From assembly GCA_016281275.1 (NCBI GenBank), contig JAEEIH010000121.1, positions 1 through 61,811 on the forward strand: 61,811 nucleotides of DNA, in the 5' to 3' direction. This document shows, one piece after another, positions 24,862 through 59,981 of the stretch; position 1 is the first letter of the stretch; each line of letters begins with the position of its first letter. The notes under the pieces are model-generated. The model was not told the DNA's origin. It searched no databases and saw only the letters and a program-made list of their open reading frames with translations. The position numbers and the translations under genes are program-made. Origin of the DNA: Lachnospiraceae bacterium (GTDB lineage Bacteria; Bacillota; Clostridia; Lachnospirales; Lachnospiraceae).

Positions 24862-26661
24862 GTGAAAAACAATCAATTGCTTCCTTTTGAGAGGAACCGT
24901 TACTATGCGGGCAAGATGCTCACTTCGGCCGATTTTCAGGCAGAGCAGAATTATGTAAATAATAAGCGAAGATTCGTGAACAACATGATGTTCGGTTCGG
25001 GTATCGTGTGCGGATGCAATGTCCTGAGTCTGGACGATCTTTCGATACTTGTCGAGAGCGGCATGGCAATCGACAATTTCGGAAGAGAGATCGTTATTGC
25101 TTCCTCGGTAGTCAAAAAGCTTTCCGCTATTGAGGGCTTTGATACCATTGCCGGAAATAAAGCGCTTCTTTGCATTAAATACCGGGAGGACAATGTCCAT
25201 ACCGTTTATTCCGTCGGATATCAGGATAACAAGAGCTCCGAATATGAATTCAACCGCGTGAGCGAGAGTTATGACCTCTTCCTGATGGATGCGTCGAATG
25301 TTGTTCCGAGAGTTGAGCTTGAAACCGAGCTCCTTGCGCGACAGAGCCTTTACAGTGATTCGGATCACAGGATCACGCTCATAGTTCCTTCGCAGATCCC
25401 GAAAGGAAAATCGGCGAAGGTCGTTGTCCGTATCGACAAGATCTCTTCAAAACCTGTCACTCTTTCGTATGAGAGTGTTCTTCAGGTACCCGTATTCACG
25501 ACAGCAAACCGTTCAAGAGAATTGTCTCTCGAATTATCTGACATTAACCTTCTCGAGGGCGGATGCATTGAAAAAGAATACTGGATCACCGCGCAGGATA
25601 CACCCGTGGACAGCGCGGAGCTTGTCATTAAGGCAGGTTCGTCGCATCTCAAGATCGACGGTCATGACGTGGATATTCCCGACGTTCCTTCGGTAAAGGT
25701 GAGCATCGTGGAGATCGACACGGAATCGCTTGTCACCCGCGAAATCTCAAAGCTCAGTCTTGAGCTTCGTTCAGGTCTCAATACAACCGATTATCTTGTG
25801 CTTGCCTGCATTGACCTTGTTCGCACGGAAAGCGCTTATATCATCGATAAAATCTCCGACGGCAATGACAAAAGGTATATCGCTTCTCCTTCACAGCATT
25901 TTGAAAGAACGAAGCTTTCGGCATTTTTCTCCGATACACCTGTTCATGAGGAAGAAACAGGCAACACCGAAAGAGTGATTTCTGAGGACAAGGAAAGAGG
26001 GATGTCCTCGAATCATTTCCAGATCGCCACGGGCACGCTTGAAATCCCTCTCGGTGAAAAGCCGAGGCGAGGGGATGTCAGGTATTCGGGCGAAATCATG
26101 CATGGACTCGGAAAAGGCAATGTCTATGTTGAAATAGGTTACGAGCAGTTCGAAGACGACAAATCTCTCGGCATGAGTGCAAAGAGCACCGTTTACGGCA
26201 ATGCTGAGCTTTTTGCGACCTCGAATGACAATATACCGGATGTCGAAACCGCCGTTAAGGTCCTTAACGATAAAGGCAGTTTTATCGTTGCGGCAAAGAT
26301 AGGGCGTGAACCCGAATTCCTTACCCTTACATACAGGTGGGTTGCAATCAGATTCCCTTCGGGTAACGACCTCGGACTTCTTGAAAACAACAACAATAAG
26401 AGTATCACCGTCGATACACCTACTGTAATACTCGGAACAAAGGACAGCTATTTCTTCAACGTCAACTTCAACAACATGGAGAAATGCAGCGTAGCCTACG
26501 AGCTTACAGAAGAGGGAAGCGGCGAGATCACGGCCGAAGGCGTATATACGGCGCCCGCCAAAGAAGGCGTATTTGAGATCAGGATCTACTGCGTGGAGAA
26601 TCCGTCTGTTTGCACATACGCATATGCGATCGTCAAGAAAAAAGGACTTGAAAATGCCTGA
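24862..26661 (+). CDS. Hypothetical 599-aa protein, first gene of the block (possible fibre/receptor-binding candidate)
   Basis: GTG start, 6 nt after AAGGAGAGG. No TM segment. The N-terminal motif LPFERNRYYAGKMLTSADFQAEQNY...GSGIVCGCNV is one I recall from conserved hypotheticals in tail-like loci (unverified). C-terminal beta-rich region with ITAEGVYTAPAKEGVFEI (Ig-like-domain style). Confidence 0.35.
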   Translation: MKNNQLLPFERNRYYAGKMLTSADFQAEQNYVNNKRRFVNNMMFGSGIVCGCNVLSLDDLSILVESGMAIDNFGREIVIASSVVKKLSAIEGFDTIAGNKALLCIKYREDNVHTVYSVGYQDNKSSEYEFNRVSESYDLFLMDASNVVPRVELETELLARQSLYSDSDHRITLIVPSQIPKGKSAKVVVRIDKISSKPVTLSYESVLQVPVFTTANRSRELSLELSDINLLEGGCIEKEYWITAQDTPVDSAELVIKAGSSHLKIDGHDVDIPDVPSVKVSIVEIDTESLVTREISKLSLELRSGLNTTDYLVLACIDLVRTESAYIIDKISDGNDKRYIASPSQHFERTKLSAFFSDTPVHEEETGNTERVISEDKERGMSSNHFQIATGTLEIPLGEKPRRGDVRYSGEIMHGLGKGNVYVEIGYEQFEDDKSLGMSAKSTVYGNAELFATSNDNIPDVETAVKVLNDKGSFIVAAKIGREPEFLTLTYRWVAIRFPSGNDLGLLENNNNKSITVDTPTVILGTKDSYFFNVNFNNMEKCSVAYELTEEGSGEITAEGVYTAPAKEGVFEIRIYCVENPSVCTYAYAIVKKKGLENA

Positions 26662-26729
26662 CCCGGCTTAAGTGATTATGAGATGAAAACCCGGTACACA
26701 GGTATGTATTGGGCAAGTGAGGGAATTAC

Positions 26730-57642: not shown

Positions 57643-57659
57643 AGGAAGGACTGTTGGTA

Positions 57660-59981
57660 ATGATCTGTTCGCAGGAGTTGATGGGTAAGCCTTTCGCAAG
57701 CTACGACGAGCTGATGGAGAATCTTTTTGCTTGCGTAAACACGGGTCTTGATCTGTACCTTTCCGGCATGAAGCTTACTTTCGCGACCGGTCAGGGTGGG
57801 TATAAAAACGTATTGTATCCCGATCTTGAAGTGGCGCATGACATTTGCCGTGATAAGATGCGGGCTTTTTCAGCAAAAGAAAAAGAAGCGGACGCAGGTG
57901 AAAGTGAAGATGAGGACGAAGAAGAGTCGGACAGCTCGGCCGATGACGACGATCTTATGAGCCTGCTTTCGGGGTTCGCCGAGAAACCGGAAATCTCCAA
58001 GGATGAAGCTTCCGAAAAAAAGGAAGCCGATTCTGTCGAGAGTCTCCCGAAAATCATGGAATATATCATGAGCAGAGCAGGCGCATCCGTTGACGAAGGT
58101 ATCAGGATGCCGTTTTATGAGCTTTGCAAAAAACAGGGATTCGAGCCGTTTACGGTGTTCTGTTTCGCTGCTGCCGTTCTTTCATCGACACAGACAGATT
58201 ACGCGGGCGTATTTCAGGTCATAAATGAGAACGGTTCGCTTCCGGCTCCCACCATAGAGTCTGCAGCCAAGCTTTTCTACGGAAAGGAATTTTCCATCAC
58301 AAGTGTTTATGCCGATATGTCGGTATGTCTTGAGCAGTTATTGCCGGTGTTTGATCTGAGGGTACAGCCGAGCATGCCGTTCTCGACAGTCGTATCACCC
58401 GATAAGAGGATAATCGATTATCTGTTCGGAAGAAACCCCGATAAGATTGATGAAAATTACATCAGATTCATGAGGATGCTGACGGATGACAAGGATCTCG
58501 ATCCGATTCTGGCCAACAGTGCCGTTTTGGAAGCCATGGAGATCTCCTACGATCAGGGCGTCAGGATCTTTTCGTATTGCGGTGACGAGGGAAGCGGCAG
58601 GAAATTTTTTGTTAAGCATTTTTGCAGGAAGCGCGGCATGAAAGCCATTGCTCTTAACTGCCGTAAGCTTTTCGTATATGACCATTCGTTTGTCGATAAG
58701 GCTCTTTGGGCTGCCGCGAGGGAATGTATCCTTACAAATGCGGCGTGTGTTATGGAGGAGCTTTCTTACCGCGAGGAGGAAAAGGAAAAATTCCAGGGTT
58801 ATATGGATCTTGCGTTTGCGAAGCTTTCCGAAAAAGGCGTGCTGGTGTTCACGTTGAGCATGGACACATTACAGCTTAAAACGATCACAAAGCTCGACTT
58901 TACTGAGCTCTCGATCCAGACTCCTTCGGCAGCGGAGCGCAGGGCGTGCTGGGATCATTACGCTGTGCCCTACGAGCTCGGCGAGGATTGCGATCTTGGT
59001 GAAATGACGATCAAATTCCTCTTTACTCCGGGTAAGATCAAGGATGCGCTTTATCATGCACGAAGCCTAGCAACGATGAACAAGGAAAAGGCGATATCAA
59101 GGGCGATGCTTTTTAAGGGCTGCAATGCCCAGATGTCATCGGAGCTTTCAAAGAAGGCGACGCGTGTCGAGGCAAAATTCGGTTTTGACGACATCGTTAT
59201 GAACCCCGATCAGCGAGAGACCATTTCTCATGCGATCGAGCAGATGAACTTCAAAAATGCGGTTTACGACGACTGGAATTACATCAAGAAGTACCCTTAC
59301 GGACGTGGTCTTACGGTTCTTCTCTTCGGCGCACCCGGTACCGGTAAATCCATGATGGCGCAGGTACTTGCGCATGAGCTTAATCTCGAACTTTACAGAG
59401 TTGACGTTTCGAAGGTTGTCGACAAATATGTCGGTGAAACGGAGAAGTCGCTCTCCATGATATTCAGAGAAGCCAAGAAATGTAACGTCGTCCTTTTCTT
59501 CGACGAGTGCGATACGATCTTCGCAAAGCGTTCCGACGACGGTGGTTCAAACCAGGCTTCGGCCAATAACAAGACGGCACTCCTTCTTCAGGAAATGGAA
59601 GCGTACGACGGTGTCTGCGTTCTGGCCACTAACTACAAACACAATATCGATCCCGCGTTCTTCAGACGTATGAAATACATTGTAGAGTTCCAGTTCCCCG
59701 ATGTTGACACGCGTGAGATGCTCTGGAGGACAACGGTTCCGAAAACCACGCCGCTTGCTGATGATGTTGACTTCAGGTTTATCGCAGAGAGATTCGAGTT
59801 TGCCGGCGGTAATATCAAGAACTGCATCCTCAACGCCGCATTCCTTGCTGCAGCTGACGGAGACGGCAAAGAGGTTCATATGAAGCATTATCTTATGGCC
59901 ATCAAATACGAGTTCATTAAGGTAGGCAAGGTGTTTACAAAGGGTGACTTTGAACCTTATGCGGCTCAGATAGGACTGTGA
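57660..59981 (+). CDS. CIS-associated AAA+ ATPase (Afp15-like; C-terminal AAA module)
   Basis: ATG 57660 lies 9 nt after AAGGAAGGA (track TTG 57654). Walker A LLFGAPGTGKSMMA, Walker B VVLFFDECD, arginine-finger region DPAFFRRM. Long N-terminal non-ATPase half with an acidic tract ESEDEDEEESDSSADDDD. Confidence 0.85.
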   Translation: MICSQELMGKPFASYDELMENLFACVNTGLDLYLSGMKLTFATGQGGYKNVLYPDLEVAHDICRDKMRAFSAKEKEADAGESEDEDEEESDSSADDDDLMSLLSGFAEKPEISKDEASEKKEADSVESLPKIMEYIMSRAGASVDEGIRMPFYELCKKQGFEPFTVFCFAAAVLSSTQTDYAGVFQVINENGSLPAPTIESAAKLFYGKEFSITSVYADMSVCLEQLLPVFDLRVQPSMPFSTVVSPDKRIIDYLFGRNPDKIDENYIRFMRMLTDDKDLDPILANSAVLEAMEISYDQGVRIFSYCGDEGSGRKFFVKHFCRKRGMKAIALNCRKLFVYDHSFVDKALWAAARECILTNAACVMEELSYREEEKEKFQGYMDLAFAKLSEKGVLVFTLSMDTLQLKTITKLDFTELSIQTPSAAERRACWDHYAVPYELGEDCDLGEMTIKFLFTPGKIKDALYHARSLATMNKEKAISRAMLFKGCNAQMSSELSKKATRVEAKFGFDDIVMNPDQRETISHAIEQMNFKNAVYDDWNYIKKYPYGRGLTVLLFGAPGTGKSMMAQVLAHELNLELYRVDVSKVVDKYVGETEKSLSMIFREAKKCNVVLFFDECDTIFAKRSDDGGSNQASANNKTALLLQEMEAYDGVCVLATNYKHNIDPAFFRRMKYIVEFQFPDVDTREMLWRTTVPKTTPLADDVDFRFIAERFEFAGGNIKNCILNAAFLAAADGDGKEVHMKHYLMAIKYEFIKVGKVFTKGDFEPYAAQIGL

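What the first reader, a model, noticed from the sequence alone, without database searches (positions are those of the whole stretch)
24862..59981. Complete contractile-injection-system locus with no phage head, replication or lysis genes and a non-canonical accessory set
Seen: about 30 same-strand ORFs with gaps mostly under 130 nt and several overlaps, insulated upstream by a 13-bp-stem terminator (24521-24554). Motifs readable by eye identify these components:
- DUF4255/Pvc16-type cap (36343) and DUF4280 PAAR-like tip (37707)
- sheath (38104) and gp19-type tube (39816)
- tail-assembly chaperone (40462) and a second tube-domain protein (41069)
- a protein at the tape-measure position (43263)
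- two tube-initiator-like paralogs (45598, 46573)
- gpD-like hub (47473) and gpV/VgrG-like spike (48894)
- gp25 wedge (49759), two Baseplate-J-like proteins (50162, 53245) and a gpI-like protein (55349)
- a C-terminal-AAA ATPase (57660)

Established: a DUF4255 cap plus a dedicated AAA+ ATPase, together with no capsid, portal, terminase, integrase or lysis genes, separates eCIS/CIS (Afp, PVC, MAC, Streptomyces and cyanobacterial CIS) from prophages. A single fused sheath gene and the absence of ClpV/TssJLM separate it from T6SS.

Inference: this is a CIS in a Clostridia-like monoderm. Its accessory content (membrane module, partner-switch pair, tube fusion, and no recognisable toxin, tail fibre or LysM) does not match the described Afp/PVC layout. 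Its mode of action (released, membrane-anchored or intracellular) and its cargo are open.
Basis: partly seen in the sequence, partly recalled or inferred. Interest (0 to 1): 0.85.

Follow-up and report, generated by a model that had tools for sequence, protein, structure and literature searches.

The report
Gut-bacterial contractile injection system locus
A complete phage-tail-like injection machine, not a prophage, sits in the chromosome of a rumen Lachnospiraceae bacterium; its lineage occurs in hundreds of gut species and carries its own membrane-protein set and a phosphorylation switch, which suggests a regulated, cell-anchored device in Gram-positive bacteria.

Summary
Window 24862-61811 is one same-strand block that encodes a complete contractile injection system (CIS): cap, PAAR-like tip, sheath, tube, chaperone, tube initiators, split hub and spike, gp25, two Cis11, Cis12 and a Cis15 AAA+ ATPase. 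Flanks are housekeeping genes. A 99.6%-identical MAG contig shows no head, lysis or toxin genes beyond the window end.

Corrections:
- Gene 24862 carries a Cis13 (tail-fibre-equivalent) N-terminal domain.
- The locus runs past the window end, into an SH3 wall-binding protein.
- The core layout (two cis11, split spike, PAAR) fits the catalogued lineage II, subtype IIa-like.

The lineage occurs in at least 293 GTDB species, almost all Lachnospiraceae, including cultured Butyrivibrio. The "odd" accessory genes are conserved parts of it:
- Upstream, a tail-anchored protein, a sensor-like 4-TM protein, a MORN protein, a TolC-like protein and a 906-aa protein.
- Between cis12 and cis15, a STAS/RsbW-type partner switch.

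Relatives carry polymorphic effectors after cis15; this strain does not. The closest solved sheaths are the membrane-anchored haloarchaeal T6SS and the cytoplasmic Streptomyces CIS.

Best reading (inferred): a cell-associated, membrane-docked CIS gated by phosphorylation. It is a new variant of a known kind.

The parts
24304..24554 (+). A 68-aa 4Fe-4S ferredoxin-like ORF (24304-24510) followed by a perfect 13-bp-stem hairpin (24521-24554). This is the upstream boundary of the locus; whether it belongs to the system is unknown.
   Evidence: Fer4 families at 1e-5. Inverted repeat. The same small ORF lies between glgB and cis13-like in L011.
24862..26661 (+). Cis13-like protein (599 aa, no TM). 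It has a baseplate-binding-type N-terminal domain, a variable middle and a conserved beta-rich C-terminal domain.
   Evidence: NF053767 CIS13_fam, 4.3e-24, residues 9-145. Orthologues in L011, L051, L053 and L093. Identity profile by region.
26730..27563 (+). Tail-anchored membrane protein (277 aa). It has a roughly 230-aa N-terminal soluble domain with no signal peptide and one C-terminal TM helix at 232-250. Candidate membrane dock for Cis13-like or the baseplate.
   Evidence: Hydropathy. It always follows cis13-like in L011, L051, L053 and L173. A 267-aa tail-anchored analogue sits in the same place in the distant relative L093.
27686..30052 (+). Sensor-like 4-TM membrane protein (778-788 aa). 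It has an extracytoplasmic beta-propeller-like domain, a Cache/PAS-like domain and a 330-aa cytoplasmic domain.
   Evidence: TM prediction. AF2 model with an 8-sequence alignment: domain pLDDT 70-85, overall 55. Foldseek hits to WalK, KinD and DctB sensor domains at 1e-4 to 1e-3. Orthologues at 25-59% identity.
30150..31364 (+). Bitopic MORN-repeat membrane protein (404 aa). The N-terminus is basic and the MORN domain is predicted to lie outside the membrane.
   Evidence: MORN, 5.3e-11. TM at about 61-91. Orthologues at about 40% identity in every relative examined, including L093.
31442..33604 (+). Exported or N-terminally anchored protein (720 aa) with TolC/OEP-like long alpha-helical hairpins and C-terminal beta domains.
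   Evidence: PF02321 OEP, 7.4e-10, 39.4 bits against a cut-off of 22. TIGR01844 TolC, 6.9e-6. AF2: two long hairpins at 147-246 and 380-486 with pLDDT 70-88, the rest poor. Orthologues at 35-64% identity.
33601..36321 (+). 906-aa protein with an N-terminal TM or signal anchor, acidic (pI 4.3), carrying a (GDGSGS)n tract encoded by a variable 18-nt repeat (35505-35696).
   Evidence: Orthologues at 27-41% identity in L003, L092, L173, L174 and L175.
36343..36960 (+). Cis16/Afp16-type cap (tail terminator).
   Evidence: Pvc16_N, 2.8e-21. About 67-70% identical in relatives.
36941..37705 (+). 254-aa lineage-specific protein of unknown role between cap and tip. It is absent from the distant relative L093.
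   Evidence: No family hit. Orthologues at 28-36% identity.
37707..38087 (+). DUF4280 PAAR-like spike tip (Cis10), 126 aa, with no toxin extension.
   Evidence: DUF4280, 3e-23. Gene calls of 126-130 aa in relatives.
38104..39795 (+). Sheath (Cis2), a single gene.
   Evidence: Phage_sheath_1 and 1C. More than 8000 homologues, the top 120 at 68% identity or more. Closest PDB entries: 9EZM at 3.4e-112 and 8BKY at 8.6e-100.
39816..40319 (+). Inner tube (Cis1), acidic (pI 4.6).
   Evidence: Phage_T4_gp19, 4e-30. pI.
40462..41021 (+). Tail-assembly chaperone (40462-40824) with a probable -1 frameshift extension. The slippery heptamer A_AAT_TTT lies at 40803-40809, and the DUF6760 part runs to 41021. 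This resembles G/GT.
   Evidence: phrog_508, 2.2e-7. DUF6760, 2e-18. The heptamer is conserved in L003, L005, L092 and L093, and in L092 and L093 the -1 frame is closed upstream of it.
41069..43231 (+). Second tube-family protein (N-terminal ~180 aa) with a 540-aa basic (pI 9.8) repeat tail: 137-aa x1.8 and 26-aa x3.8 repeats.
   Evidence: PF06841, 6.9e-4, and phrog_4542, 1.1e-3. The N-domain is 46-56% identical in relatives, whose total length varies from 279 to 720 aa. Repeats and charge.
43263..45542 (+). 759-aa acidic protein, tape-measure candidate by position only.
   Evidence: No family hit. The N-terminal ~320 aa are about 30% identical in relatives, whose length varies from 689 to 1203 aa.
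45598..47460 (+). Two CIS_tube (tube-initiator, Cis5/Cis7-like) paralogues, at 45598-46464 and 46573-47460. Neither has a LysM domain.
   Evidence: PF19266, 5.9e-12 and 6.6e-8. The two are fused into one protein in L173.
47473..48759 (+). gp27/gpD-like baseplate hub, the first half of a split Cis8.
   Evidence: NF033848 VgrG_rel, 1.5e-11. phrog_196 baseplate hub, 2.8e-8.
48882..49739 (+). gp5/gpV-like OB-fold spike, the second half of the split Cis8. The start is probably 48894.
   Evidence: Phage_base_V, 8e-19. 281-aa gene call in L009.
49750..50181 (+). gp25 wedge / sheath initiator (Cis9).
   Evidence: GPW_gp25, 1.1e-13.
50162..55332 (+). Two Cis11 (Baseplate-J/gp6-like) paralogues, at 50162-53209 (1015 aa) and 53245-55332 (695 aa).
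   Evidence: TIGR02243, 4.2e-17, and phrog_6. Baseplate_J, 5.4e-8. PDB 9gtp (annotated 'Baseplate protein J-like domain-containing protein'; the same entry also holds the 534-aa S. coelicolor-type sheath listed under 8BKY), 1.1e-7.
55349..56482 (+). Cis12 (P2 gpI-like wedge protein).
   Evidence: Tail_P2_I, 6.1e-7. Present in 57 of 80 related loci.
56580..57386 (+). Partner-switch pair. The STAS anti-anti-sigma-type protein (probable start 56640, 99 aa) has a conserved SSAGL phospho-site motif. The RsbW/SpoIIAB-type serine kinase (56958-57386) has intact N, G1 and G2 boxes.
   Evidence: STAS_2, 1.7e-13, and HATPase_c_2, 5.1e-18. STAS directly follows cis12 in 55 of the 57 related loci that show cis12. 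Motif conservation of 90% or more in 60 and 35 orthologues.
57400..57642 (+). 80-aa highly charged protein conserved immediately upstream of cis15. Role unknown.
   Evidence: No family hit. tblastn hits in 36 related loci (31 at >=50% coverage), usually next to cis15.
57660..59981 (+). Cis15/Afp15-type ATPase: a CIS-specific N-terminal region plus a single C-terminal AAA domain.
   Evidence: AAA, 5.3e-28, at residues 555-680, and weak WHD. Homologues are about 69% identical over the full length. 293 GTDB species encode the N-domain.
60161..61051 (+). 2-TM membrane protein with a HATPase_c domain and no histidine before it, so not a canonical histidine kinase. It is a conserved member of the regulatory module.
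   Evidence: HATPase_c, 6.3e-20. Sequence. Present in 57 of 80 related loci, usually between STAS and cis15.
61075..61811 (+). N-terminally anchored SH3_3 (wall-binding type) protein, 300 aa, cut by the window end. It is the last gene of the block.
   Evidence: The full gene is on L009, 99.6% identical to the window. SH3_3, 5.9e-10. SH3 proteins occur in 48 of 80 related loci.

Best explanation
SHOWN. This is a complete, chromosomally fixed contractile injection system of a rumen Lachnospiraceae bacterium. It belongs to a lineage present in at least 293 species. Its core matches the published lineage II, subtype IIa-like pattern: two Cis11, a split hub and spike, a PAAR-like tip, and divergent Cis12 and Cis13. 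Three accessory blocks are conserved with the core.
(a) Upstream lies an envelope module: Cis13-like protein, tail-anchored membrane protein, sensor-like 4-TM protein, MORN protein, TolC-like protein and a 906-aa anchored protein.
(b) Between cis12 and cis15 lies a Ser-phosphorylation partner switch (STAS plus an RsbW-type kinase). In relatives this often comes with a PP2C phosphatase carrying a dCache sensor, or with a small ABC-type ATPase.
(c) Next to cis15 lie a His-less HATPase_c membrane protein and an SH3 wall-binding protein.

INFERRED (favoured mechanism). The particle assembles in the cytoplasm, using the G/GT-like frameshifting chaperone and the Cis15 ATPase. It is docked baseplate-first on the cytoplasmic membrane. 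The docking goes through the Cis13-like trimer bound to the tail-anchored protein, in the way the TM helix of Cis13 anchors the Anabaena tCIS. The extracytoplasmic proteins (MORN, TolC-like, 906-aa, SH3) organise or breach the wall above the baseplate. The sensor-like membrane proteins feed the STAS/RsbW switch, which licenses assembly or firing. Firing drives the tube, spike and PAAR-like tip outwards into a neighbouring cell in a T6SS-like manner. Relatives load polymorphic effectors encoded after cis15. This strain has none there, so its payload is either encoded elsewhere or is the spike complex itself.
For: Identity as a CIS:
- Profile hits for every core part.
- Housekeeping flanks upstream and downstream.
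- The same chromosomal site after glgB in a relative whose 4-TM protein is only 52% identical.
- No close relatives in IMG/VR; the best sheath match there is 49% identical.

Lineage size and taxonomy.

Subtype features: compared.

Conservation of the envelope module:
- Same genes in the same order in L003, L011, L092, L173, L174 and L175.
- The module stays attached when the locus is permuted in L051 and L053.
- The trio Cis13-like, tail-anchored protein and MORN protein persists in a relative with only 49% sheath identity.

Arguments for docking:
- Cis13-family N-domain. In tCIS this domain binds the baseplate and a TM helix anchors it.
- The adjacent protein is tail-anchored with a cytoplasmic domain.
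- The Cis13-like C-terminal domain is conserved (52-88% identity) rather than hypervariable.
- The closest solved sheaths are the membrane-anchored haloarchaeal T6SS and the cytoplasmic Streptomyces CIS. Afp, PVC and AlgoCIS score about 50-70 orders of magnitude in E-value worse.
- The haloarchaeal system also has two cis11 genes and an upstream membrane anchor, and its nearest bacterial relatives are Bacillota.
- No lysis genes in the window, downstream of it, or in 76 downstream gene clusters of relatives.

Partner switch:
- STAS directly follows cis12 in 55 of the 57 related loci that show cis12.
- The phospho-site motif and the kinase boxes are conserved.
- A SpoIIE-type PP2C with a dCache domain occurs in relatives.

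Effectors in relatives: ADPrib_exo_Tox, Ntox11, Peptidase_C2, GNATs and a second WHD+AAA ATPase.
Against: - No envelope protein is homologous to a proven anchor. No TssJLM was found, and CisA and Hbor_38620 could not be compared.
- PDB sequence searches for the Cis13-like, TolC-like and 4-TM proteins found nothing.
- The Cis13 link rests on one NCBIfam N-domain hit that is below the full-length cut-off.
- Structure models are of low to moderate confidence.
- The Cis13-like protein has no TM helix of its own. Its beta-rich C-terminus could equally be a receptor-binding fibre tip of a released particle.
- Sampling of the envelope module was anchored mostly on CIS genes, so free-standing copies elsewhere are not excluded.
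- No sigma factor or other output of the partner switch was identified.
- No expression or imaging data exist.
- How a tube would cross a Gram-positive wall is unknown.
Confidence: 0.55

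Rival explanations
1. Classical extracellular CIS (Afp/PVC/AlgoCIS-like). Particles are released by producer lysis, bind targets through the Cis13-like fibre and inject. The upstream membrane proteins would serve regulation, release or immunity rather than anchoring.
For: - Cap, AAA ATPase and a fibre-position gene with a beta-rich C-terminus.
- Relatives carry toxin-like genes after cis15, as eCIS loci do.
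- Firmicutes loci of this superfamily are catalogued as eCIS, and toxins from Ruminiclostridium and Paenibacillus loci were validated.
Against: - No holin, endolysin or other lysis gene in the window, downstream of it, or in relatives.
- The fibre-like C-terminus is conserved, not diversified.
- Conserved pairing with a tail-anchored membrane protein.
- The nearest solved sheaths belong to non-extracellular systems.
Confidence: 0.22
2. Streptomyces-type cytoplasmic CIS. Free-floating particles are recruited to the producer's own membrane under stress and fire to cause regulated cell death or lysis, for example altruistic lysis or a step linked to sporulation. The partner switch would be the stress trigger.
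For: - The second-closest solved sheath and the only PDB hit for Cis11b (9gtp) trace to the S. coelicolor-type CIS entries.
- This strain has no effector genes.
- A stress-type partner switch is embedded in the locus.
- Streptomyces needs a membrane protein, CisA, for firing.
Against: - Relatives carry polymorphic toxin-like cargo typical of antagonism.
- The large, conserved extracytoplasmic protein set is hard to explain for self-directed firing.
- Subtype features differ from Streptomyces type IId, which has a single cis11, an unsplit VgrG and no fibre gene.
Confidence: 0.18
3. Defective myovirus prophage or R-type tailocin remnant.
For: Phage-derived tail genes, including a G/GT-like frameshifting chaperone.
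Against: - Pvc16 cap and Cis15 ATPase are present.
- No head, packaging, integrase or lysis genes on either side.
- Fixed chromosomal site shared with a relative whose 4-TM protein is only 52% identical (seen in one relative only).
- Present in 293 species with about 70% identical sheath and ATPase.
- Absent from IMG/VR as close relatives.
Confidence: 0.02

Closest known systems
Haloarchaeal T6SS-like CIS (Halogeometricum borinquense; Sci Adv 2024, PMC11566945)
   Same: Closest solved sheath (9EZM, E 3.4e-112). Two cis11 genes, Cis12 and Cis13 present, and a membrane protein encoded upstream of the core. That paper places Bacillota as the nearest bacterial relatives.
   Different: Its anchor is a single 6-TM protein (Hbor_38620). 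Here there is a six-gene envelope block, five of whose products are membrane or exported proteins, and no predicted 6-TM protein. A monoderm wall replaces the S-layer. One search did not mention a partner switch there. Homology of the anchors was not testable.
Streptomyces coelicolor cytoplasmic CIS (CIS-Sc) with CisA
   Same: Gram-positive host. Second-closest sheath (8BKY, 8.6e-100), and the Cis11b hit 9gtp shares an entry with that sheath sequence. Depends on a membrane protein encoded in the cluster.
   Different: Streptomyces is type IId, with one cis11 gene, an unsplit VgrG and no fibre gene. [quoted passage not shown] The function there is self-directed cell death.
Anabaena thylakoid-anchored CIS (tCIS)
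   Same: A Cis13 whose N-domain binds the baseplate and whose TM helix anchors the particle to a membrane. Here a Cis13-family N-domain protein is followed by a tail-anchored membrane protein.
   Different: The TM helix is on a separate polypeptide here. No Cis19 crown was recognised and Cis6 was not identified. The tCIS sheath is far more distant (4.1e-46). The host is a diderm.
Afp / PVC (lineage I eCIS)
   Same: Shared parts list: sheath, tube, gp25, Afp11, Afp15 ATPase, Afp16 cap and a PAAR-like tip.
   Different: One sheath gene instead of three. Split spike, two Afp11 copies, and no LysM on the tube initiators. There is a G/GT-type chaperone next to the tube gene. This strain has no adjacent toxins. 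It also has a conserved envelope module and partner switch.
dbeCIS lineage II subtype IIa loci (Chen et al. 2019, PMC6899500)
   Same: Two afp11, afp8 split into gp27-like and gp5-like ORFs, PAAR present, divergent afp12 and afp13, and subtype-specific extra genes.
   Different: Placement on the Afp11 tree was not done. That survey drew its Gram-positive loci mainly from Actinobacteria, and in the passages searched it mentions neither Firmicutes nor Clostridia and no partner switch.
Partner-switching modules that control secretion or envelope functions (e.g. Bordetella BtrU/V/W for the T3SS; Anabaena HenR module)
   Same: A STAS protein with a phospho-serine motif plus an RsbW-type kinase, with a PP2C phosphatase in relatives, embedded in a non-sigma context.
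   Different: The link to a contractile injection system is not reported in any paper of the searched library. The output partner here is unknown. The Bordetella comparison is from my own knowledge and from titles listed; I did not read those papers.

Membership tests
CIS/eCIS superfamily (Afp/PVC-related phage-tail-like systems) | Contractile tail core: sheath, tube, gp25, Afp11/Baseplate-J, spike | tested here: met
   Pfam, NCBIfam and PHROG hits.
CIS/eCIS superfamily (Afp/PVC-related phage-tail-like systems) | Afp16/Pvc16 (DUF4255) cap and Afp15-type ATPase with a C-terminal AAA domain | tested here: met
   Pvc16_N, 2.8e-21. AAA at residues 555-680 of 775.
CIS/eCIS superfamily (Afp/PVC-related phage-tail-like systems) | No capsid, portal, terminase or lysis genes linked to the tail genes | tested here: met
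   All window ORFs were scanned. The 8 kb beyond the window on 99.6%-identical L009 holds housekeeping genes.
CIS/eCIS superfamily (Afp/PVC-related phage-tail-like systems) | LysM domain on the Afp7-type tube initiator | tested here: not met
   Both CIS_tube paralogues hit only PF19266.
CIS/eCIS superfamily (Afp/PVC-related phage-tail-like systems) | Release of free particles into the medium (the 'extracellular' mode) | not testable with these tools
   Needs EM of supernatants or cryo-ET.
CIS/eCIS superfamily (Afp/PVC-related phage-tail-like systems) | Toxin or effector genes adjacent to the structural genes | tested here: not met
   None in the window or on L009. Present in relatives: ADPrib_exo_Tox, Ntox11 and Peptidase_C2.
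eCIS lineage II subtype IIa (Chen 2019) | Two afp11 copies; afp8 split into gp27-like and gp5-like ORFs; PAAR present; divergent afp12 and afp13 | tested here: met
   Definitions. Genes at 50162 and 53245, 47473 and 48882, 37707, 55349 and 24862.
eCIS lineage II subtype IIa (Chen 2019) | Placement inside the IIa clade of the Afp11 tree | not tested
Canonical T6SS (subtypes i-iii) | Two-gene sheath (TssB/TssC), TssJLM membrane complex, ClpV unfoldase | tested here: not met
   Single 563-aa sheath gene. No TssJ, TssL, TssM or ClpV family hit in any ORF. The ATPase is a single-AAA Cis15 type.
Myovirus prophage / R-type tailocin | Head and packaging genes (prophage) or a lysis cassette with no cap or AAA ATPase (tailocin) | tested here: not met
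   No close relatives in IMG/VR.
Membrane-anchored CIS (haloarchaeal T6SS / tCIS type) | Cis13 with a baseplate-binding N-domain | tested here: inconclusive
   NF053767 N-domain hit, 4.3e-24, below the full-length cut-off. No sequence match to any PDB chain (the tool carries no list of which chains it holds), even with a profile.
Membrane-anchored CIS (haloarchaeal T6SS / tCIS type) | Dedicated membrane anchor (TM helix on Cis13, or a Hbor_38620 homologue) | tested here: inconclusive
   The Cis13-like protein has no TM helix, but the adjacent conserved protein is tail-anchored.
Membrane-anchored CIS (haloarchaeal T6SS / tCIS type) | Extended particles perpendicular to a membrane in situ | not testable with these tools
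   Needs cryo-ET.
Streptomyces-type cytoplasmic CIS (type IId) | Single cis11 gene, unsplit VgrG, no fibre gene, CisA homologue | tested here: not met
   Two cis11, a split spike and a Cis13-like gene are present. Definitions. CisA homology was not tested because no sequence was available.
Partner-switching module (RsbV/RsbW, SpoIIAA/SpoIIAB type) | STAS protein with a conserved phosphorylatable Ser motif, plus a HATPase_c_2 kinase with N, G1 and G2 boxes | tested here: met
   Y.SSAGLRAL is 90% or more conserved in 60 orthologues, and the kinase boxes are conserved in 35.
Partner-switching module (RsbV/RsbW, SpoIIAA/SpoIIAB type) | Cognate PP2C phosphatase and a sigma-factor (or other) output partner | tested here: not met
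   The window has no PP2C and no sigma factor. A SpoIIE-type PP2C has a tblastn hit in 28 of 80 related loci (21 at >=50% coverage). The output partner is unknown.

The most novel reading that the evidence does not exclude
This is a 'Gram-positive T6SS'. On this reading it is a contact-dependent injection machine docked on the cytoplasmic membrane of monoderm gut and rumen Lachnospiraceae by a Cis13-like protein and a tail-anchored protein. A dedicated wall-spanning assembly, including a TolC-like helical tunnel protein without an outer membrane, would open the wall above it. Firing would be licensed by a serine-phosphorylation partner switch that reads extracytoplasmic sensors. This would be a mode of action and a control logic not yet described for any bacterial CIS.
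Probability: 0.3. Interest if true: 0.9.

Novelty: new variant of a known kind. Interest (0 to 1): 0.66.

Why it matters
Lachnospiraceae are dominant fibre-degrading, butyrate-producing commensals of rumen and gut. No paper in the searched library describes a CIS for them.

- A lineage in at least 293 species, with about 70% conserved sheath and ATPase, implies strong selection and probably a role in community structure.
- If the machine is envelope-anchored, it would show how a contractile device fires through a Gram-positive wall. That question is open. The only Gram-positive bacterial CIS characterised in the papers retrieved here is the self-directed Streptomyces system.
- The embedded partner switch would be the first post-translational licensing module tied to a CIS.
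- The polymorphic cargo region in relatives is a ready source of new effectors.
- Cultured carriers (Butyrivibrio sp. AE3009 and AE2015) make all of this testable.

Tried and rejected
Searches that led nowhere:
- A single-protein scan of IMG/VR with Cis12 found nothing, because the patterns were too strict.
- A metagenome scan anchored on the TolC-like protein returned only one confirmed locus, L092. The test of whether envelope genes ever occur without a CIS is therefore weak.
- An IMG/VR scan with the sheath alignment returned only distant relatives (49% identity or less). This serves as evidence against a viral classification, and only L093 was analysed.
- PDB sequence searches for the TolC-like, 4-TM and Cis13-like proteins found no hits, whether with a single sequence or a profile.
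- AF2 on the TolC-like protein without an alignment gave mean pLDDT 42. Only two helical hairpins are credible, so I ran no fold search on it.
- The look-up of P0242 was not on record.

Negative results inside the window:
- Promoter and terminator consensus scans were at chance level. The operon structure is therefore not established. One 10/12 promoter-like site at 56534-56562, before STAS, is noted only as a lead.
- Rfam found no riboswitch or other RNA upstream of the locus, only a tRNA at 16896-16969.
- Long antisense ORFs inside the locus (for example 53449-54858, 469 aa) have no family hits and are treated as non-genes.

Hypotheses considered and dropped:
- Host is a diderm. This was raised by the OEP hit. 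It was dropped because all relatives are Lachnospiraceae and the hit covers only the helical tunnel part of TolC, not the beta-barrel.
- 41069 is the tape measure, since it sits where phage TMPs sit, right after G/GT. This is left open. Its tail length varies from about 100 to 540 aa among relatives, and so does the length of the next gene.

Full report
**What is in the window.** From 24862 to the window end there are 28 ORFs on the + strand. Gaps run from -58 to 179 nt. Profile searches identify a full contractile-tail parts list.
- Pvc16-type cap (36343), DUF4280 PAAR-like tip (37707) and sheath (38104).
- gp19-type tube (39816), DUF6760 (40767), a weak second tube domain (41069), two CIS_tube proteins (45598, 46573), an OB-fold spike (48882) and gp25 (49750).
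- Baseplate_J (53245), P2 gpI-like (55349), STAS (56580), an RsbW/SpoIIAB-type HATPase_c_2 (56958) and a 775-aa protein with one C-terminal AAA domain (57654).
- (NCBIfam and PHROGs): a tail-assembly chaperone (40462), a gp27/gpD-like hub (47473) and a second baseplate-J/gp6-like protein (50162).
- One search also shows that the first gene (24862) has a CIS13-family N-terminal domain (4.3e-24).

The 13-bp perfect hairpin at 24521-24554 is real and follows a small ferredoxin-like ORF.

**Not a prophage.**
- Upstream genes are typA, metK, proS, upp, an AI-2E transporter and glgB.
- The window is 99.6% identical to two contigs of MAG GCA_024685735.1. One of them extends 8 kb past the window end.
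- After cis15 come a HATPase_c membrane protein, an SH3_3 protein, and then ABC-F, an amylase-like protein, DUF5721 and HtpG.
- A relative whose 4-TM protein is only 52% identical has the locus at the same site after glgB.
- IMG/VR holds no close relative.
- Antisense ORFs in the block have no family hits.

**Lineage.**
- The sheath has more than 8000 homologues. The top 120 are 68-90% identical and, where named, are Lachnospiraceae, Eubacterium, Agathobacter or Hungatella MAGs.
- Cis15 behaves the same way.
- A scan of one genome per GTDB species with the CIS-specific N-domain of Cis15 found relatives in 293 species. The best 80 are almost all Lachnospiraceae from rumen and gut. They include the cultured isolates Butyrivibrio sp. 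AE3009 and AE2015.
- The closest relatives are rumen MAGs, at 92-94% identity.

**Comparison with known systems.**
- The closest solved sheaths are 9EZM (3.4e-112) and 8BKY (8.6e-100). Pvc2, Afp2/3, tCIS and AlgoCIS score only 1e-42 to 1e-48.
- 9EZM is Cis2 of the membrane-anchored haloarchaeal T6SS, and 8BKY is Cis2 of the cytoplasmic Streptomyces CIS.
- Chen et al. define lineage II subtypes IIa and IIc by two afp11 copies and an afp8 split into gp27-like and gp5-like ORFs. Subtypes IIa and IIb have divergent afp12 and afp13. This locus has all of these, so its core is IIa-like. The tree placement was not done.
- The haloarchaeal system also has two cis11 genes, Cis12, Cis13 and an upstream membrane anchor. 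Its authors place Bacillota as the nearest bacterial relatives.

**The accessory genes are conserved parts of the system: upstream module.** The order is Cis13-like, tail-anchored 277-aa protein, 4-TM 788-aa protein, MORN protein, TolC-like protein, 906-aa protein, then cap.
- This order recurs in L003, L011, L092, L173, L174 and L175. Identities are 25-64% for the accessory proteins, against 66-79% for cap, sheath, tube and chaperone.
- In L051 and L053 the locus is permuted, with cis15 followed by the Cis13-like gene. The module still travels with the CIS.
- In a distant relative with 49% sheath identity (L093), the trio Cis13-like, tail-anchored 267-aa protein and MORN-TM protein still precedes the cap.

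**The accessory genes are conserved parts of the system: downstream module.**
- STAS directly follows cis12 in 55 of the 57 related loci that show cis12.
- It is followed by a small ABC-type ATPase or by a MatE, 353-aa and dCache-SpoIIE(PP2C) set.
- Then come the RsbW-like kinase, a 2-TM HATPase_c protein, an SH3 protein, an ~80-aa protein and cis15.
- The window has the minimal version, shared with L012, L013 and L075; L018 has a related layout that lacks the RsbW-like and ~80-aa hits.
- The STAS motif Y.SSAGLRAL and the kinase N, G1 and G2 boxes are 90% or more conserved.

**What the accessory proteins look like.**
- The 277-aa protein has no signal peptide and a single C-terminal TM helix, so its bulk should face the cytoplasm.
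- The 788-aa protein has four TM helices. Its AF2 model has a beta-propeller-like domain and a Cache/PAS-like domain outside the membrane, plus a cytoplasmic domain. Domain pLDDT is 70-85 and the overall value is 55. Foldseek hits to WalK, KinD and DctB sensor domains are at 1e-4 to 1e-3.
- The MORN protein has a basic N-terminus, one TM region and MORN repeats predicted outside.
- The 720-aa protein passes Pfam's OEP threshold. It shows two long helical hairpins in an otherwise poor model, followed by beta domains. This is the tunnel part of TolC without a beta-barrel, in a monoderm.
- The Cis13-like protein is most conserved in its N-domain (71-78%) and next in its C-terminal 200 aa (52-88%). 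The middle is variable (34-38%). This is unlike the hypervariable tips of receptor-binding fibres.

**Cargo.**
- In relatives the region after cis15 is highly polymorphic: 277 ORFs fall into 152 clusters.
- It holds a second WHD+AAA ATPase, GNAT acetyltransferases, ADPrib_exo_Tox, Ntox11 and calpain-type peptidase domains, together with many large proteins of which only the 25 commonest Pfam families were listed. None of those 25 commonest families is a lysis family.
- This strain goes straight from the regulatory genes to housekeeping genes. 'No toxin' is therefore true for this strain, but it is not a property of the lineage.

**Mechanism.**
- Shown: a complete CIS with conserved envelope and phospho-switch modules.
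- Inferred: the particle is cell-associated. The Cis13-like trimer would bind the baseplate through its N-domain, as Cis13 does in tCIS. Through the tail-anchored protein it would dock on the cytoplasmic membrane.
- Inferred: the extracytoplasmic proteins would prepare or span the wall, and the sensor-like proteins and the partner switch would license assembly or firing.
- I put about 0.55 on this cell-anchored, regulated reading.
- The rivals are a released eCIS (about 0.22), a Streptomyces-like self-directed cytoplasmic CIS (about 0.18) and a prophage remnant (about 0.02).
- Main weaknesses: no homology to a proven anchor, modest structure models, no identified output of the switch, and no experimental data.

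**Literature.** Searches combining contractile injection with Firmicutes, Lachnospiraceae, Clostridia or Butyrivibrio found no study of this lineage. Searches combining it with partner-switching, STAS or SpoIIE found no paper holding both. A metagenome survey reported digestive-tract CIS as Bacteroidota only.

**Verdict.** The core belongs to a known kind (lineage II eCIS-like loci). The conserved envelope module, the embedded partner switch and the wide spread in Lachnospiraceae make it a new variant worth experimental follow-up in cultured Butyrivibrio.

Noticed in passing
window 40462-41021 (heptamer 40803-40809): The chaperone ORF and the DUF6760 ORF overlap by 58 nt in the -1 frame. The nucleotide motif TAAATTTTAC (slippery A_AAT_TTT) is conserved in L003, L005, L092 and L093. 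In L092 and L093 the -1 frame is closed by stops right up to the heptamer. This suggests that DUF6760 is the frameshift ('T') extension of a G/GT-like chaperone in a CIS.
   Followed up: partly
window 24665-24694: A perfect 11-nt tandem repeat (TTGTCGGACTT x2.7) lies just downstream of a TATATT-like -10 element, about 170 nt upstream of the Cis13-like gene. It may be an operator. It was not found at the same place in L011, L051 or L053.
   Followed up: partly
window 24304-24510: A 68-aa two-cluster ferredoxin-like ORF (CxxCxxC...CxxCxxC) lies between glgB and the CIS block. It is conserved at the same place in L011. Any link to the CIS is unknown.
   Followed up: partly
window 41846-42598 and 42871-43165: Recent internal duplications in the tail of the tube-family protein: 411 nt x1.8 at 95% identity, and 78 nt x3.8. 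The tail is basic (pI 9.8) while the tube is acidic (pI 4.6). The MAG contig L001 breaks inside this repeat.
   Followed up: partly
window 35505-35696: An 18-nt repeat (x10.7) encodes (GDGSGS)n in the 906-aa envelope protein. The near-identical MAG copy is 921 aa, so the copy number varies between strains.
   Followed up: partly
window 60161-61051: A 2-TM protein with a complete HATPase_c domain but no histidine anywhere upstream of it, so it has no H-box. It is conserved in 57 of 80 related loci. It may be an atypical kinase or an ATP-binding sensor.
   Followed up: partly
L006/L007, L040, L044, L046-L048, L050 (downstream of cis15): A recurring cargo cassette in the Acetatifactor-like group: a second WHD+AAA ATPase, a 153-aa protein, an ADP-ribosyltransferase (826 aa), a 791-aa protein, a GNAT and an Ntox11 protein. 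The second ATPase may be a cargo loader.
   Followed up: partly
L051 and L053: Permuted locus: cis15, p80 and HATPase_c proteins are followed directly by the Cis13-like gene, the tail-anchored protein, the 4-TM protein and the MORN protein.
   Followed up: partly
L173 17538-19022: The two CIS_tube paralogues are fused into one 494-aa protein in an Agathobacter-labelled MAG.
   Followed up: no
window 10984-15849 (- strand): A 1621-aa multidomain signalling protein: Ser/Thr kinase, AAA_16 STAND, TPR, GAF and GGDEF. It lies 9 kb upstream of the CIS, and no link was examined.
   Followed up: no
window 56534-56562: The best promoter-like match in the 3' half (TTTACG-17-TATAAT, 10/12) sits in the gap before STAS. 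It hints that the switch and cis15 may form a separate transcription unit. Overall scan counts are at chance.
   Followed up: no
window 9114-10400 (- strand) and 16896-16969: A DUF4143/AAA_14 ATPase gene and a tRNA gene lie in the upstream housekeeping region.
   Followed up: no
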